NCBI GenBank assembly: GCA_000004985.1
Contig: GG739337.1
Reading direction: 5' to 3' (one strand)
DNA: 1,727 bases
Source: Naegleria gruberi
Lineage: Eukaryota
In this document: positions 1 through 1,727 of the stretch, in pieces
Layout of the letters: each line of letters opens with the position of its first letter
Numbering within the stretch: the stretch's first letter is position 1
Notes under the pieces: generated by a model
The model's database searches: none
Seen by the model: the letters and a program-made list of their open reading frames with translations, nothing else
Told to the model about the DNA's origin: nothing
Program-made: the position numbers and the translations under genes

Positions 1-1
1 A

Positions 2-100
2 AGCAAATGTAAAATACGAAAGCAAACCCTGCAAGAATGGGAACCGAAATGGCATCCGGACATTGATGAGGAATGTTTCGTTGTCGAGGGACTAGAGTAA
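2..100 (+). CDS. Possible 3'-terminal coding segment of an upstream + strand gene (…SKCKIRKQTLQEWEPKWHPDIDEECFVVEGLE*). The strand and reality are uncertain.
   Basis: Frame 2 is open from the window edge to TAA at 98-100. Local GC is higher (~50%) than the flanks. The plus strand is purine-rich. A T-rich UTR-like sequence follows. The antisense frame is also open (114→1, MVTFPYSSPSTTKHSSSMSGCHF…), so the strand call is weak. Confidence 0.25.
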   Translation, partial: SKCKIRKQTLQEWEPKWHPDIDEECFVVEGLE

Positions 101-317
101 GGGAAAGTAACCATGGTTCGCATTCTGTTGCATTGCTATTGTTTATAATTGTATTATTGGTTTGTTGCCTTGTAGAATTGATTTCGTATATTGTTTCTAA
201 TAATTTGCTTGCAAGTTGATTCGTCATTCAAGAGATGTTGTCGTATTTTATTTTATTAATGAAGTTCAGGAGGTCACTGATAGACGGTGGGCAGTACCAT
301 GTATTCGTTGTTCCAAC

Positions 318-347
318 CAAATTTTTTTAGAGTCGAGCCAATTTTAT
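318..347 (-). repeat. Solitary inverted copy of the repeat-unit core (minus strand reads AATTGGCTCGACTCTAAAAAAATTTG)
   Basis: The reverse complement of 333-341 is GGCTCGACT, which matches the array core 9/9. The flanking A/T tract is arranged like the unit tail. About 20/24 positions match the unit. Confidence 0.5.
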
Positions 348-404
348 AAATATTTTAATATTATTTATTCTTCTGATGATATTTCGTCGCCACTTTATTC
401 ATCA

Positions 405-518
405 CTTCCACTTTGTGGATTCTGATGCATCATCTTCCTCATATTCTGATCCGCTGGTAGTATCGTCTTGGTAAATTCTTGGAAAGCTTTTGGAGTTTAT
501 GGTTTGATGGTTGGTATT
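405..518 (-). CDS. Possible 3'-terminal exon of a minus-strand gene (…NTNHQTINSKSFPEIYQDDTTSGSEYEEDDASESTKWK*), with a poly(A) signal immediately downstream
   Basis: The minus strand is purine-rich here. The frame is open from 518 down to 405. The stop TGA is at 404..402. A canonical AATAAA on the minus strand lies at 399..394 and a second at 369..364. The tail is acidic and looks like a real C-terminus. An alternative overlapping minus frame, 636..442, is also open. Confidence 0.2.
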
Positions 519-786
519 TCATCATCAACAGGATTTCCTCTTTTTGTTGCCAATTTCTTGGTTTCTTTGTTGTTGGAGATTTAGATGTAAGAAGAAGATT
601 CCAGTCAAAGAAACTTCCTGATGATGGGTTGTTGTATTAATTTTCTAGCCAACTGCCATGTTGTTCAGTTGCTTCCAAATACCAGCTTGTGATTGGACAT
701 TGTGGCCAGTAGACAAAACCTCTTAATTTTTTTAAATTTTAATTTAACGGTTTTTATCAGCCGAATTGTCAAAAGCAACGGATCTT

Positions 787-986
787 CTGTGGCTCGACTT
801 TGAAATTTTTTTGTCTGACCCGGCTCGACTTGTAAAAATTTTTGTCTGACCCGGCTTGACTTGTAAATTTTTTAGCCTGACCCGGCTCGACTTGGAAATT
901 TCGCAAGTTCTGCATAAAATGCCTCTGACTCGACTTTGAAATTTTTACTCCCTGACCCGGCATTTTACATCACTGACCACCGTCTA
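787..986. repeat. Tandem minisatellite-like array of about six contiguous 28-31-bp units. The consensus is CTGACCCGGCTCGACTTGTAAAAATTTTTGT. The array degenerates at both ends. Unit 4 carries a ~23-nt insertion (902-924).
   Basis: The units are 787-814, 815-845, 846-876, 877-924, 925-951 and 952-986. Each has a GC-rich head (CTGACCCGGCTCGACTT) and an AT-rich tail (GTAAAAATTTTT). The units abut with no spacers. Confidence 0.85.
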
Positions 987-987
987 G

Positions 988-1301
988 TCACTGAAAAATT
1001 CATTCAATCTTTGCAAGTTATTCGAAATGAAACTATTGAGCAAGCTAAACAGCAAATTGAAGTGGAGAGACAAGAATTGGAAATGGAAAAGAAAGAATGG
1101 GAAATGGAAAAGGAAAGATTATTGAAAATGAATCCAATTCAAGATGAAATTGTTTATTTAGATGTTGGCGGGAAAGTGTTTACAACAAGTATTCAAACTT
1201 TAAAGAATAGTTATCCAATTCCTGGATTGGAAAGTGAATTGCAAGGTAATTTCTTTACCAGTATGGTATTCAATTCTGGAAGGTTTTCTTTATTAAACGA
1301 A
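988..1301 (+). CDS. BTB/POZ (T1/KCTD-type, BTB_2) domain protein, 5' coding segment: coiled-coil lead-in followed by the first half of the T1 domain. The 5' boundary is uncertain.
   Basis: Frame 0 is open from 918 to 1301. The sense strand is purine-rich. The translation '...IEQAKQQIEVERQELEMEKKEWEMEKERLLKMNPIQDEIVYLDVGGKVFTTSIQTLKNSYP...FTSMVFNSGRFSLLNE' contains the T1/BTB_2 hallmarks ('LNVGG'-like 'LDVGG', 'MFSGRF'-like 'VFNSGRF'). The first in-frame ATG is at 1083. Position 936 is TTG, not ATG. Candidate acceptors are AG at 986-987 and 1015-1016. The exon may instead be joined to an upstream exon with the real start. The segment ends at an in-frame TGA (1302-1304) that interrupts the domain. 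Confidence 0.55.
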
Positions 1302-1302
1302 T

Positions 1303-1636
1303 GAGGGAAGAATTTTCATTGATAGAGATGGTCAACTCTTTGAATATATTATGGAATACTTGAGGAATGGTGAAATTCTATTGGATGATAACTTGCCAGA
1401 GCATCAAATATTGAAAAAGAAGATTCTGAGAGAGGCCATGTTTTATCGAATGGAAGATTTGATTATTTATCTGAGTGGAGATTCATCACAGCTTGATTCG
1501 AATAACTTGAAAATTGTGGAAGTGAACCAACAATTCAAGTATGTGAGTGATTTTGATGAGAATGGGTTGTTTTATTGGATTGGAAAGAAGCATTCTCAAA
1601 GAACAAAGAAAGATTCTTGGTCAAATCCGTATGAAG
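1303..1636 (+). CDS. Continuation of the same BTB/POZ T1-domain protein in the +1 frame: second half of the T1 domain plus a C-terminal region. Its reading frame is only restored after a 1-nt shift, so the gene is frameshifted (pseudogene or indel).
   Basis: Frame 1 is open from 1297 to 1641 and reads 'TNEGRIFIDRDGQLFEYIMEYLRNGEILLDDNLPEHQILKKKILREAMFYRMEDLIIYL...'. This matches the T1 consensus 'E.G.yFIDRDg..F..IL.YLR.G.l'. It ends at the donor GAAG|GTAAGTG at 1636/1637. Confidence 0.6.
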
Positions 1637-1683
1637 GTAAGTGAAAATTAACAATTTGTAAAAACTTCAAATTCTTCTTGCAG
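1637..1683 (+). other. Spliceosomal intron, 47 nt, phase 1
   Basis: The donor is GTAAGTG (1637-1643). The tail is pyrimidine-rich and the acceptor is TTCTTCTTGCAG (1672-1683). The 47-nt length is the modal short-intron size in Caenorhabditis. The reading frame continues without stops after splicing (…NPYEG|AGLVNIITDANYYCV). Confidence 0.55.
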
Positions 1684-1727
1684 CTGGATTGGTAAATATC
1701 ATAACAGATGCCAATTATTACTGTGTG
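1684..1727 (+). CDS. Next exon of the BTB/POZ T1-domain gene. It is partial and runs off the window.
   Basis: With the g from 1636 joined to ct at 1684-1685, the frame is open to the window end (AGLVNIITDANYYCV). Confidence 0.45.

What the first reader, a model, noticed from the sequence alone, without database searches (positions are those of the whole stretch)
1240..1360. +1 frameshift inside the conserved T1/BTB_2 domain of the KCTD-like gene
The conserved motif 'SMVFNSGRF-SLLN' is in frame 0 and runs into TGA at 1302-1304. The obligatory continuation 'EGRIFIDRDGQLFEYIMEYLRNG' is in frame 1. Deleting a single base around 1301-1302 gives 'SLLNDEGRIFIDRDG' or 'SLLNEEGRIFIDRDG', which is the canonical KCTD arrangement. 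No GT…AG intron of length ≡1 mod 3 and realistic size spans the site. The locus is therefore a young pseudogene of the large nematode T1-domain family or carries an assembly or sequencing indel. A programmed frameshift is much less likely.
Basis: partly seen in the sequence, partly recalled or inferred. Interest (0 to 1): 0.6.

Follow-up and report, generated by a model that had tools for sequence, protein, structure and literature searches.

The report
Frameshifted, transposon-hit T1-domain pseudogene in Naegleria
The reading-frame break is real in this sequence, but it sits in a broken copy of a KCTD-like (T1/BTB_2) gene of a Naegleria-type amoeba, not a nematode; the copy most likely lost two bases in a short run of A's and also carries a transposon in its coding region, so it is an ordinary young pseudogene.

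Summary
The N-terminal third of a T1/BTB_2 domain is in the frame whose codons start at multiples of 3 and stops at TGA 1302-1304. The rest of the domain, EGRIFIDRDG onward, is in the +1 frame from 1303.

A pseudogene or an indel error are still the two live options, and pseudogene is the more likely. Four details need correcting.
- The only close relative is a Naegleria gruberi protein, and the next are from Willaertia magna. The gene is heterolobosean, not nematode.
- Alignment to the uninterrupted Willaertia gene shows the window lacks 2 nt in an A-run (TTA AAA ACG became TTAAACG). Only this repair restores the 10-residue spacing seen in 54 of 58 homologous domains.
- Two frame-restoring GT-AG intervals do exist (40 nt and 28 nt). 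Both would remove conserved codons and both score lower.
- There are further lesions. A 706-bp transposon with inverted ends and an 8-bp target duplication splits the upstream coding sequence, and there is no in-frame ATG upstream of it. The Naegleria relative has its own, different frameshift.

There is no support for programmed frameshifting. This is an ordinary finding of low interest.

The parts
258..280 (+). Remnant of upstream coding sequence (NEVQEVT.., frame with codon starts divisible by 3). It is cut off from the rest of the gene by the insertion. There is no in-frame ATG between the stop at 201-203 and 280.
   Evidence: tblastn of P0001 against the window; scan of in-frame stops and ATGs
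273..280 (.). Left copy of the 8-bp target-site duplication GTCACTGA
281..986 (.). 706-bp non-autonomous DNA transposon (hAT-like by its 8-bp duplication). Terminal inverted repeats are TAGACGGTGGGCAGT / ACTGACCACCGTCTA (14 of 15). It has 31-nt subterminal tandem repeats at 787-960, with an inverted copy at 316-340, and 10 stops in the gene's frame.
   Evidence: With the element removed, the site reads NEVQEVTEKFIQSLQVIRN, 18 of 19 identical to the contiguous P0001 sequence.
987..994 (.). Right copy of the target-site duplication GTCACTGA
987..1151 (+). Coding sequence for the charged coiled-coil-like N-terminal region (VTEKFIQSLQ...ERLLKMNPIQDEI), 96% identical to N. gruberi P0001
1152..1301 (+). 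N-terminal part of the T1/BTB_2 domain in the original frame (VYLDVGG...SGRFSLLNE). Relative to Willaertia it includes a 33-nt in-frame insertion.
1294..1304 (+). Frame break. The A-run at 1295-1297 is where 2 nt are missing relative to the Willaertia gene. TAA 1294-1296 closes the +1 frame upstream. TGA 1302-1304 closes the original frame.
1303..1464 (+). C-terminal part of the T1/BTB_2 domain in the +1 frame (EGRIFIDRDGQLFEYIMEYLRNG...FYRMEDL)
1465..1636 (+). Linker and start of a C-terminal domain (SDFDENGLFYWIGK...WSNPYE). Homologues share it, and in them it gives sub-threshold F5/8 type C (discoidin-like) matches.
1637..1683 (+). 47-nt spliceosomal intron, GTAAGTG...TTCTTCTTGCAG, phase 1
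   Evidence: Sequence. The spliced reading ...WSNPYE-AGLVNIITD aligns with W.NP...G.V in homologues.
1684..1727 (+). Start of the next exon (..GLVNIITDANYYCV). It runs off the end of the window.

Best explanation
The window holds a recently inactivated, unprocessed pseudogene copy of a heterolobosean (Naegleria) gene. That gene encodes an N-terminal coiled coil, a KCTD-type T1/BTB_2 oligomerisation domain and a discoidin-like C-terminal domain.

The frame break at 1294-1304 is most likely a genuine 2-bp deletion in a run of five A's. The inferred ancestral sequence TTA TTA AAA ACG AAT GAG GGA (LLKTNEG) became TTATTAAACGAATGAGGGA. This puts a TGA seven bases downstream and moves the rest of the domain into the +1 frame.

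The same gene copy is also split by a 706-bp DNA transposon in its coiled-coil coding region, and it has no in-frame start codon upstream of that insertion. No functional full-length protein can be made from the sequence as it stands.

Shown directly: the split of the domain between frames, the 2-nt gap relative to the Willaertia gene, the transposon with its target duplication, and the intact conserved residues elsewhere. Inferred: that the deletion is in the genome rather than only in the assembly, and that the locus is not expressed as protein.
For: (1) The domain spans the junction. Pfam BTB_2 matches profile positions 1-19 in one frame and 41-90 in the next, and 1-90 when the frames are joined.

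(2) Taxon. The only close protein among 5.8 billion is N. gruberi P0001. The closest named full-length relatives are from Willaertia magna.

(3) The Willaertia gene (L001:3001-3516) is a single uninterrupted exon across the site. In the MAFFT DNA alignment, the only gap that is not a multiple of 3 is 2 nt missing from the window, at TTATT--AAACG against TTATCAAAAACT.

(4) The spacing between G[RK]-aromatic and F-I-D-R is 10 residues in 54 of 58 homologous domains and never 9. The 2-nt repair gives 10 and the 1-nt repair gives 9.

(5) Family HMM scores: 2-nt repair 98.5 bits (96.7 with X at the unknown residue), 1-nt repair 94.2, 28-nt 'intron' 91.8, 40-nt 'intron' 89.2.

(6) The KCTD16 T1 structure sequence aligns without a gap across the 2-nt-repaired junction.

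(7) Independent lesions in the same gene. A transposon at 281-986 has 14/15 inverted ends and a perfect 8-bp duplication, and it interrupts a sequence that is contiguous in P0001. It contains ten in-frame stops, and there is no in-frame ATG at 204-280.

(8) P0001 is itself truncated by a different frameshift. Its end..YPILDWKVN, equals the window's +1 frame at 1222-1239. No intact close paralogue was found in two searches. The small subfamily therefore looks to be decaying.

(9) The repaired domain scores at the family median (98.5 against 99.8 bits). All invariant residues are kept. The transposon ends and duplication are nearly perfect. All three points indicate young lesions.
Against: No reads, second assembly or transcript could be examined, so an assembly or sequencing indel at this exact site cannot be excluded.

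Apart from the frameshift, the T1 domain and the downstream 126 codons are fully open and conserved. That is also what a functional gene with a sequence error would look like.

The transposon does not by itself prove loss of function. An in-frame ATG at 1083 or 1128 could start a protein with a complete T1 domain if the frame were intact.

The preference for a 2-nt deletion over a 1-nt insertion rests on one orthologue-level DNA alignment, the spacing statistics and a 2.5-4 bit HMM difference. This is favoured, not proven.

No DNA of a close paralogue was available, so dN/dS could not be computed.
Confidence: 0.7

Rival explanations
1. Sequencing or assembly error. The genome really has an in-frame A-run (for example A5), and the 2-nt loss (or a 1-nt gain nearby) is an artefact of base-calling or consensus. 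The T1 exon is intact in the organism.
For: The lesion lies in a homopolymer, the classic place for indel errors. Everything else in the T1 domain and downstream is conserved and open, and the repaired domain scores at the family median.
Against: A 2-nt error in a run of only 3-5 A's is uncommon for any platform. The same gene copy carries a structural lesion that cannot be a base-calling error, namely the 706-bp transposon with its target duplication. It also lacks an upstream in-frame ATG. Its only close relative is also frameshifted, at another site. No protein matching this locus exists in any annotated source, as expected for an unannotated pseudogene.
Confidence: 0.15
2. A very short spliceosomal intron restores the frame. 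The candidates are 1266-1305 (40 nt, giving ...FFTSM|GRIFIDRDG) and 1283-1310 (28 nt, giving ...NSGR|IFIDRDG).
For: Both have GT-AG ends and a length of 1 mod 3, and both give an open reading frame. A Naegleria fowleri study used 30 bp as the minimum intron length, based on an assessment of predicted genes (PMC8296547), so size alone does not exclude the 40-nt candidate.
Against: The 40-nt interval removes the nearly invariant SGRF motif. Its DNA (TTCTGGAAGgTTT) aligns codon for codon with Willaertia coding sequence. The 28-nt interval removes 9-10 residues from a spacer that is 10 residues long in 54 of 58 homologues. Both products score lower than either indel repair (89.2 and 91.8 against 94-98 bits). 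The splice signals (GTATTC...AATGAG and GTTTTC...GGGAAG) are poor next to the window's evident intron, GTAAGT...TTCTTCTTGCAG. The Willaertia homologue has no intron here.
Confidence: 0.04
3. Programmed +1 ribosomal frameshifting at GAA-UGA-G, stimulated by the stop codon as in antizyme or RF2. It would produce ...SLLNE-EGRIFIDRDG....
For: The original frame ends in a stop codon exactly where the +1 frame becomes the conserved one. That is the geometry of antizyme- and RF2-type sites (established knowledge).
Against: The product would have a 9-residue spacer, seen in 0 of 58 homologues. The Willaertia homologue is in frame with no stop here, so the site is not conserved. The 100 nt downstream fold no better than shuffled sequence (z = -0.26). 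GAA to AAU re-pairing is poor. The gene is otherwise disrupted by a transposon. I know of no precedent in Heterolobosea (my own knowledge).
Confidence: 0.015

Closest known systems
KCTD-type T1/BTB_2 domain proteins (Pfam PF02214); closest solved structure is the human KCTD16 T1 domain (PDB 6ocp, 5a15)
   Same: The repaired conceptual protein has the full T1 signature (VxLxVGG..F.T...TL, SGRF, FIDRDG..F..I..YLR). It scores 46 bits against Pfam BTB_2 and E 5.5e-14 against KCTD16.
   Different: Here the domain is split across two reading frames with a premature TGA, so as written it cannot be translated as one domain. It has a lineage-specific 11-residue loop insertion and the unusual MVFNSGRF in place of MFSGRF. 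The C-terminal partner domain is discoidin-like rather than the KCTD C-terminal domain.
Willaertia magna hypothetical proteins KAL9646001.1 (P0027) and KAL9645976.1 (P0018)
   Same: Closest named relatives. P0027 is 57% identical over its matched stretch, and both are 52% identical across the A3 alignment. They have the same order of parts: charged coiled coil, T1, then a ...G....WSNP.. stretch. The gene is a single exon across the junction.
   Different: They are in frame through the junction (TTA TCA AAA ACT AAA GAT GGT), lack the 33-nt insertion, and end shortly after WSNPF.
Naegleria gruberi predicted protein P0001 (127 aa)
   Same: 96% identical over 78 residues of coiled coil plus the start of T1. 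It shows the sequence that the transposon interrupts in the window as one contiguous stretch.
   Different: It has its own frameshift about 75 nt upstream of the window's (near window position 1221) and stops there. Its first ~30 residues have no counterpart in the window.
hAT-superfamily non-autonomous DNA transposons (MITE-like elements)
   Same: Short terminal inverted repeats (15 nt, 14/15), an exact 8-bp target-site duplication, subterminal short repeats in both orientations, and no long ORF.
   Different: The end starts TAGAC rather than the usual (C/T)A(A/G)NG (my own knowledge). No transposase or other copies could be examined, so the superfamily assignment is tentative. P, Merlin and Mutator elements can also give 8-bp duplications.

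Membership tests
T1/BTB_2 (PF02214) KCTD-like domain | Match to the Pfam model above the gathering score | tested here: met
   The frame-joined protein scores 46.2 bits against a 21.4 cut-off, covering profile 1-90. The +1-frame piece alone scores 34 bits.
T1/BTB_2 (PF02214) KCTD-like domain | Domain encoded contiguously in one reading frame (translatable as a domain) | tested here: not met
   Profile positions 1-19 are in the original frame, which ends at TGA 1302-1304. Positions 41-90 are in the +1 frame.
T1/BTB_2 (PF02214) KCTD-like domain | Conserved core residues (LxVGG, T..TL, SG, FIDR, F, LR) | tested here: met
   All invariant columns of two alignments are present in the conceptual protein.
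Unprocessed pseudogene | Clear homology to a protein-coding family, plus at least one lesion that prevents translation of the full product | tested here: met
   There is a frameshift with a premature stop. A 706-bp transposon in the coding sequence carries 10 in-frame stops, and there is no upstream in-frame ATG.
Unprocessed pseudogene | Retains gene structure (intron) rather than being a retrocopy | tested here: met
   A 47-nt GTAAGT...CAG intron at 1637-1683 joins conserved sequence.
Unprocessed pseudogene | Lesion present in the genome itself (reads or a second assembly) | not testable with these tools
   No reads are available. Exact-product look-ups and a metagenome scan found nothing.
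Unprocessed pseudogene | Relaxed selection (dN/dS near 1) or lack of expression | not testable with these tools
   No DNA of a close paralogue and no transcript data are available. Willaertia is too divergent, with synonymous sites saturated.
Spliceosomal intron spanning the junction | GT-AG ends and a length that restores the frame | tested here: met
   1266-1305 (40 nt) and 1283-1310 (28 nt).
Spliceosomal intron spanning the junction | Spliced product keeps the conserved domain, and the interval is not itself conserved coding sequence | tested here: not met
   The intervals remove SGRF and/or the 10-residue spacer, give lower HMM scores, and align to Willaertia coding DNA.
Programmed +1 frameshift site (antizyme/RF2 type) | Original-frame stop at the shift site | tested here: met
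   GAA TGA G at 1299-1305.
Programmed +1 frameshift site (antizyme/RF2 type) | Shift site conserved in homologues | tested here: not met
   The Willaertia gene is in frame without a stop. P0001 is broken at another position.
Programmed +1 frameshift site (antizyme/RF2 type) | Stimulatory downstream RNA structure | tested here: not met
   The 100 nt after the site fold at -17.4 kcal/mol, z = -0.26 against shuffles.
hAT-like non-autonomous DNA transposon (the insertion at 281-986) | Terminal inverted repeats flanked by an 8-bp target-site duplication | tested here: met
   TIR 14/15. GTCACTGA at 273-280 and 987-994. The empty site matches P0001.
hAT-like non-autonomous DNA transposon (the insertion at 281-986) | Related autonomous element with a hAT transposase, or multiple copies in the genome | not testable with these tools
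   The source genome is not available in any searchable collection here.

The most novel reading that the evidence does not exclude
The TGA at 1302-1304 is a stop-codon-stimulated +1 recoding site (GAA-UGA-G), so a heterolobosean amoeba makes a full T1-domain protein by programmed frameshifting. Alternatively, the 40-nt interval 1266-1305 is an unusually short, weak-signal intron.
Probability: 0.03. Interest if true: 0.6.

Novelty: new member of a known kind. Interest (0 to 1): 0.12.

Why it matters
It matters little beyond annotation. The locus should be flagged as a pseudogene, or checked for a homopolymer error, rather than modelled as a gene.

It is a tidy small example of how a gene copy in an amoeboflagellate genome decays. 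It shows a recent DNA-transposon insertion with an intact target duplication, plus a slippage-type 2-bp deletion in an A-run. A sister copy is broken at a different point.

If the frame break were instead bypassed in vivo, which is unlikely, it would be the first recoding site that I know of in Heterolobosea (my own knowledge).

Tried and rejected
- Introns. I enumerated every GT/GC-AG interval that yields an open frame. Of the 14 solutions, only two keep FIDRDG and are short. Both were rejected on conservation, spacing and HMM score.
- Selenocysteine read-through of the TGA. Rejected because the original frame hits TGA and TAG again 15-21 nt later (GKNFH**).
- The transposon acting as an 'introner' spliced out of the mRNA. 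The only GT...AG pair that uses the duplication (273...987) is 715 nt long (1 mod 3) and shifts the frame into early stops. Rejected by reading the sequence.
- Compensation between the P0001-type shift at 1221 and the window's shift. Rejected because the intervening +1 frame has a TAA at 1294 and P0001 stops after LDWKVN.
- Retrieving the source or paralogous DNA. Exact-product look-ups for P0001 and for two window ORFs found nothing. The metagenome scan matched 119 patterns but no relative. A profile search found no intact Naegleria paralogue among the top 100.
- Rfam. It returned only one sub-threshold miRNA-like chance hit.
- Literature on Naegleria intron size distribution. It yielded only the averages (203 bp for N. 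gruberi) and a 30-bp minimum used for N. fowleri.
- Literature on Naegleria transposons. Nothing specific was found.

Full report
**1. The observation**

The window was translated in the three forward frames.
It reads ...ERLLKMNPIQDEIVYLDVGGKVFTTSIQTLKNSYPIPGLESELQGNFFTSMVFNSGRFSLLNE and ends at TGA 1302-1304.
- The +1 frame has a TAA at 1294-1296. It then reads TNEGRIFIDRDGQLFEYIMEYLRNGEILLDD... without a stop up to 1641.
- Pfam BTB_2 (PF02214) matches profile positions 1-19 in the first piece, weakly on its own (13.6 bits).
- It matches positions 41-90 in the second piece (34 bits, above the 21.4 cut-off).
- It matches positions 1-90 as a single stretch when the frames are joined (46.2 bits, E 5.8e-12).

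The domain therefore spans the junction and the coordinates are right.

**2. Whose gene it is**

A search of 5.8 billion proteins with the joined protein returned one close hit. This is P0001, a 127-aa 'predicted protein' of Naegleria gruberi.
- P0001 is 96% identical to the window over 78 residues, window 987-1220.
- An exhaustive HMMER scan found 2315 T1-domain relatives.
- The closest named ones are two Willaertia magna proteins, P0027 and P0018. Willaertia is a heterolobosean amoeba like Naegleria.
- P0027 is 57% identical over its matched stretch. Both are 52% identical across the A3 alignment.
- Further relatives with the same T1-plus-C-terminal-domain layout come from Pelomyxa, Balamuthia, Planoprotostelium, diatoms and unnamed metagenomic protists.
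- The window's G+C content (30-40%) fits N. gruberi (33%, PMC8296547).

The 'nematode' label is wrong.

**3. Gene anatomy**

The conceptual protein has three parts.
- A charged coiled-coil-like N-terminal region.
- A T1/BTB_2 domain (1152-1464).
- The start of a C-terminal domain (SDFDENGLFYWIGK...WSNPYE).

Full-length homologues share the C-terminal domain, where it gives sub-threshold F5/8 type C matches. A canonical 47-nt intron (1637-1683, GTAAGTG...TTCTTCTTGCAG, phase 1) joins ...WSNPYE to AGLVNIITDANYYCV. That junction aligns with W.NP...G.V in homologues.

**4. What the frame break is**

The Willaertia gene for P0027 is one uninterrupted exon (L001:3001-3516).
- At the junction it reads TTT TCT GGA AGA TTT GAA TTA TCA AAA ACT AAA GAT GGT TAC ATA TTT ATT GAT AGA GAT GGT.
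- A MAFFT DNA alignment of the two T1 regions has three gaps. Two are in-frame extra stretches in the window (33 nt and 3 nt). The third is 2 nt missing from the window: TTATT--AAACG against TTATCAAAAACT.
- Restoring two A's gives TTA TTA AAA ACG AAT GAG GGA AGA, which is LLKTNEGR. Willaertia has LSKTKDGY.
- Independently, the spacer between G[RK]-aromatic and [F]-[I]-D-R is 10 residues in 54 of 58 domains among the 150 best homologues, and never 9.
- The 2-nt repair gives a spacer of 10.
- I built a profile from 289 homologous domains, seeded on the Willaertia protein so as not to favour either repair. Its scores are below.

| Reconstruction | Bits |
|---|---|
| 2-nt repair | 98.5 |
| 2-nt repair with X at the unknown residue | 96.7 |
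| 1-nt repair | 94.2 |
| 28-nt 'intron' product | 91.8 |
| 40-nt 'intron' product | 89.2 |

- The human KCTD16 T1 sequence aligns without a gap across the 2-nt-repaired junction.

The lesion is best described as a 2-bp deletion in an A5 run, which has the same frame effect as a +1 insertion. This is a slippage-type change.

**5. Introns**

Contrary to the finding, frame-restoring GT-AG intervals exist.
- 1266-1305 is 40 nt and gives ...FFTSM|GRIFIDRDG.
- 1283-1310 is 28 nt and gives ...NSGR|IFIDRDG.
- Size alone does not exclude 40 nt, because 30 bp was used as the minimum intron length for N. fowleri (PMC8296547).
- The 40-nt interval contains the nearly invariant SGRF codons, which align base for base with Willaertia coding DNA.
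- The 28-nt interval deletes most of the fixed-length spacer.
- Both have poor splice signals compared with the real intron in the window, and both score below the indel repairs.

I reject both.

**6. Recoding**

GAA-TGA-G has the geometry of a stop-stimulated +1 site, but several things count against it.
- The site is not conserved, since Willaertia is in frame.
- The product would have the unseen 9-residue spacer.
- The downstream 100 nt fold no better than shuffles (z = -0.26).
- Selenocysteine read-through fails because the original frame stops again within 21 nt.

**7. Other lesions in the same gene**

P0001 reads ...NEVQEVTAKFIQSLQ... as one contiguous stretch. In the window, NEVQEVT is at 258-278 and VTEKFIQSLQ starts at 987.

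Between them lies a 706-bp element (281-986).
- Its terminal inverted repeats are 15 nt, TAGACGGTGGGCAGT / ACTGACCACCGTCTA, matching at 14 of 15.
- It is flanked by an exact 8-bp direct duplication, GTCACTGA (273-280 and 987-994).
- It has 31-nt subterminal tandem repeats (787-960), with an inverted copy near the other end (316-340).
- It has no long ORF.
- Removing the element and one copy of the duplication reconstructs NEVQEVTEKFIQSLQVIRN, 18 of 19 identical to P0001.

This is a non-autonomous DNA transposon, hAT-like by the 8-bp duplication, inserted into coding sequence. It places ten stops in the gene's frame. Upstream of it there is no in-frame ATG after the stop at 201-203, and the first ~30 residues of P0001 have no counterpart in the window.

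A structural insertion of this kind cannot be a base-calling error. The gene copy is therefore damaged independently of the frameshift.

**8. The sister copy**

P0001 ends ...KNCYPILDWKVN. LDWKVN is the window's +1 frame at 1222-1239. That locus therefore has its own 1-nt loss near position 1221, about 75 nt upstream of the window's lesion, and its model stops there. Two searches found no intact close paralogue in any annotated proteome. The small Naegleria subfamily appears to be decaying at independent sites.

**9. Age**

Three observations point to young lesions.
- The repaired T1 domain scores at the family median (98.5 against 99.8 bits).
- It keeps every invariant residue.
- The transposon's ends and duplication are nearly perfect.

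The same observations keep the sequencing-error rival alive for the 2-nt site itself.

**10. Verdict**

| Explanation | Probability |
|---|---|
| Young, unprocessed pseudogene of a heterolobosean T1/BTB_2-discoidin-like gene: real 2-bp A-run deletion plus transposon insertion | about 0.7 |
| Assembly or sequencing indel at the A-run, in a copy still hit by the transposon | about 0.15 |
| Short intron | about 0.04 |
| Programmed frameshift | about 0.015 |

The remainder is unassigned. The finding is real but ordinary, so the interest score is low.

**11. What could not be done**

I could not retrieve reads, transcripts, the source genome or the DNA of the P0001 locus. Read-level confirmation, expression and dN/dS therefore remain untested.

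Noticed in passing
window 273-994: A 706-bp non-autonomous DNA transposon (281-986) has 15-nt terminal inverted repeats (14/15) and an exact 8-bp target-site duplication, GTCACTGA. It is inserted in the coiled-coil coding region of the same gene. Removing it restores a sequence that is contiguous in N. gruberi P0001.
   Followed up: yes
window 787-960 and 316-340: Inside the transposon there are four or five 31-nt tandem units (..GACCCGGCTCGACTTGTAAAxTTTTTGTCT..) near the right end, and one inverted copy near the left end. These are subterminal repeats of the kind that serve as transposase-binding sites in hAT and similar elements (my own knowledge).
   Followed up: partly
window 1221-1240 compared with P0001 residues 121-127: The N. 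gruberi relative P0001 switches to the window's +1 frame at about 1221 (..YPI|LDWKVN) and stops. This is an independent 1-nt frameshift in the sister copy, so that annotated 'predicted protein' is probably also a truncated pseudogene product.
   Followed up: partly
window 1-257: The region upstream of NEVQEVT has no in-frame ATG after the stop at 201-203 and no counterpart of the first ~30 residues of P0001. Only RDVVVFYFINEVQEVT resembles RGLVSNNFENEVQEVT (10 of 16). The 5' end of this gene copy is diverged or lost.
   Followed up: partly
window 1209-1241 and 1267-1275: Relative to the Willaertia gene, the window has a 33-nt in-frame insertion (loop ..YPIPGLESELQ..) that P0001 shares. It also has extra residues inside the usually fixed MFSGRF motif (MVFNSGRF). 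'MF' directly precedes SG in 42 of 98 homologous motifs.
   Followed up: partly
window 1637-1683: A canonical 47-nt phase-1 intron (GTAAGTG...TTCTTCTTGCAG) lies within the start of the discoidin-like C-terminal domain. The next exon runs off the window.
   Followed up: yes
L001 2939-3010 (Willaertia magna contig JBEGDK010000135.1): Upstream of the annotated start of P0027, the sequence ATG TCA CTT CAA CAG CAA GTT AAT GAA CTT TCC AAT TCC TGA matches the N-terminus of its paralogue P0018 (MSLQQQINEVS...) but hits a stop after 13 codons. That Willaertia copy seems N-terminally truncated too. Several paralogues sit on one 86-kb contig.
   Followed up: no
window 1215-1270, minus strand: A sub-threshold Rfam match to mir-1545 (22 bits against a gathering score of 78, E 0.066). 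I regard it as chance.
   Followed up: no
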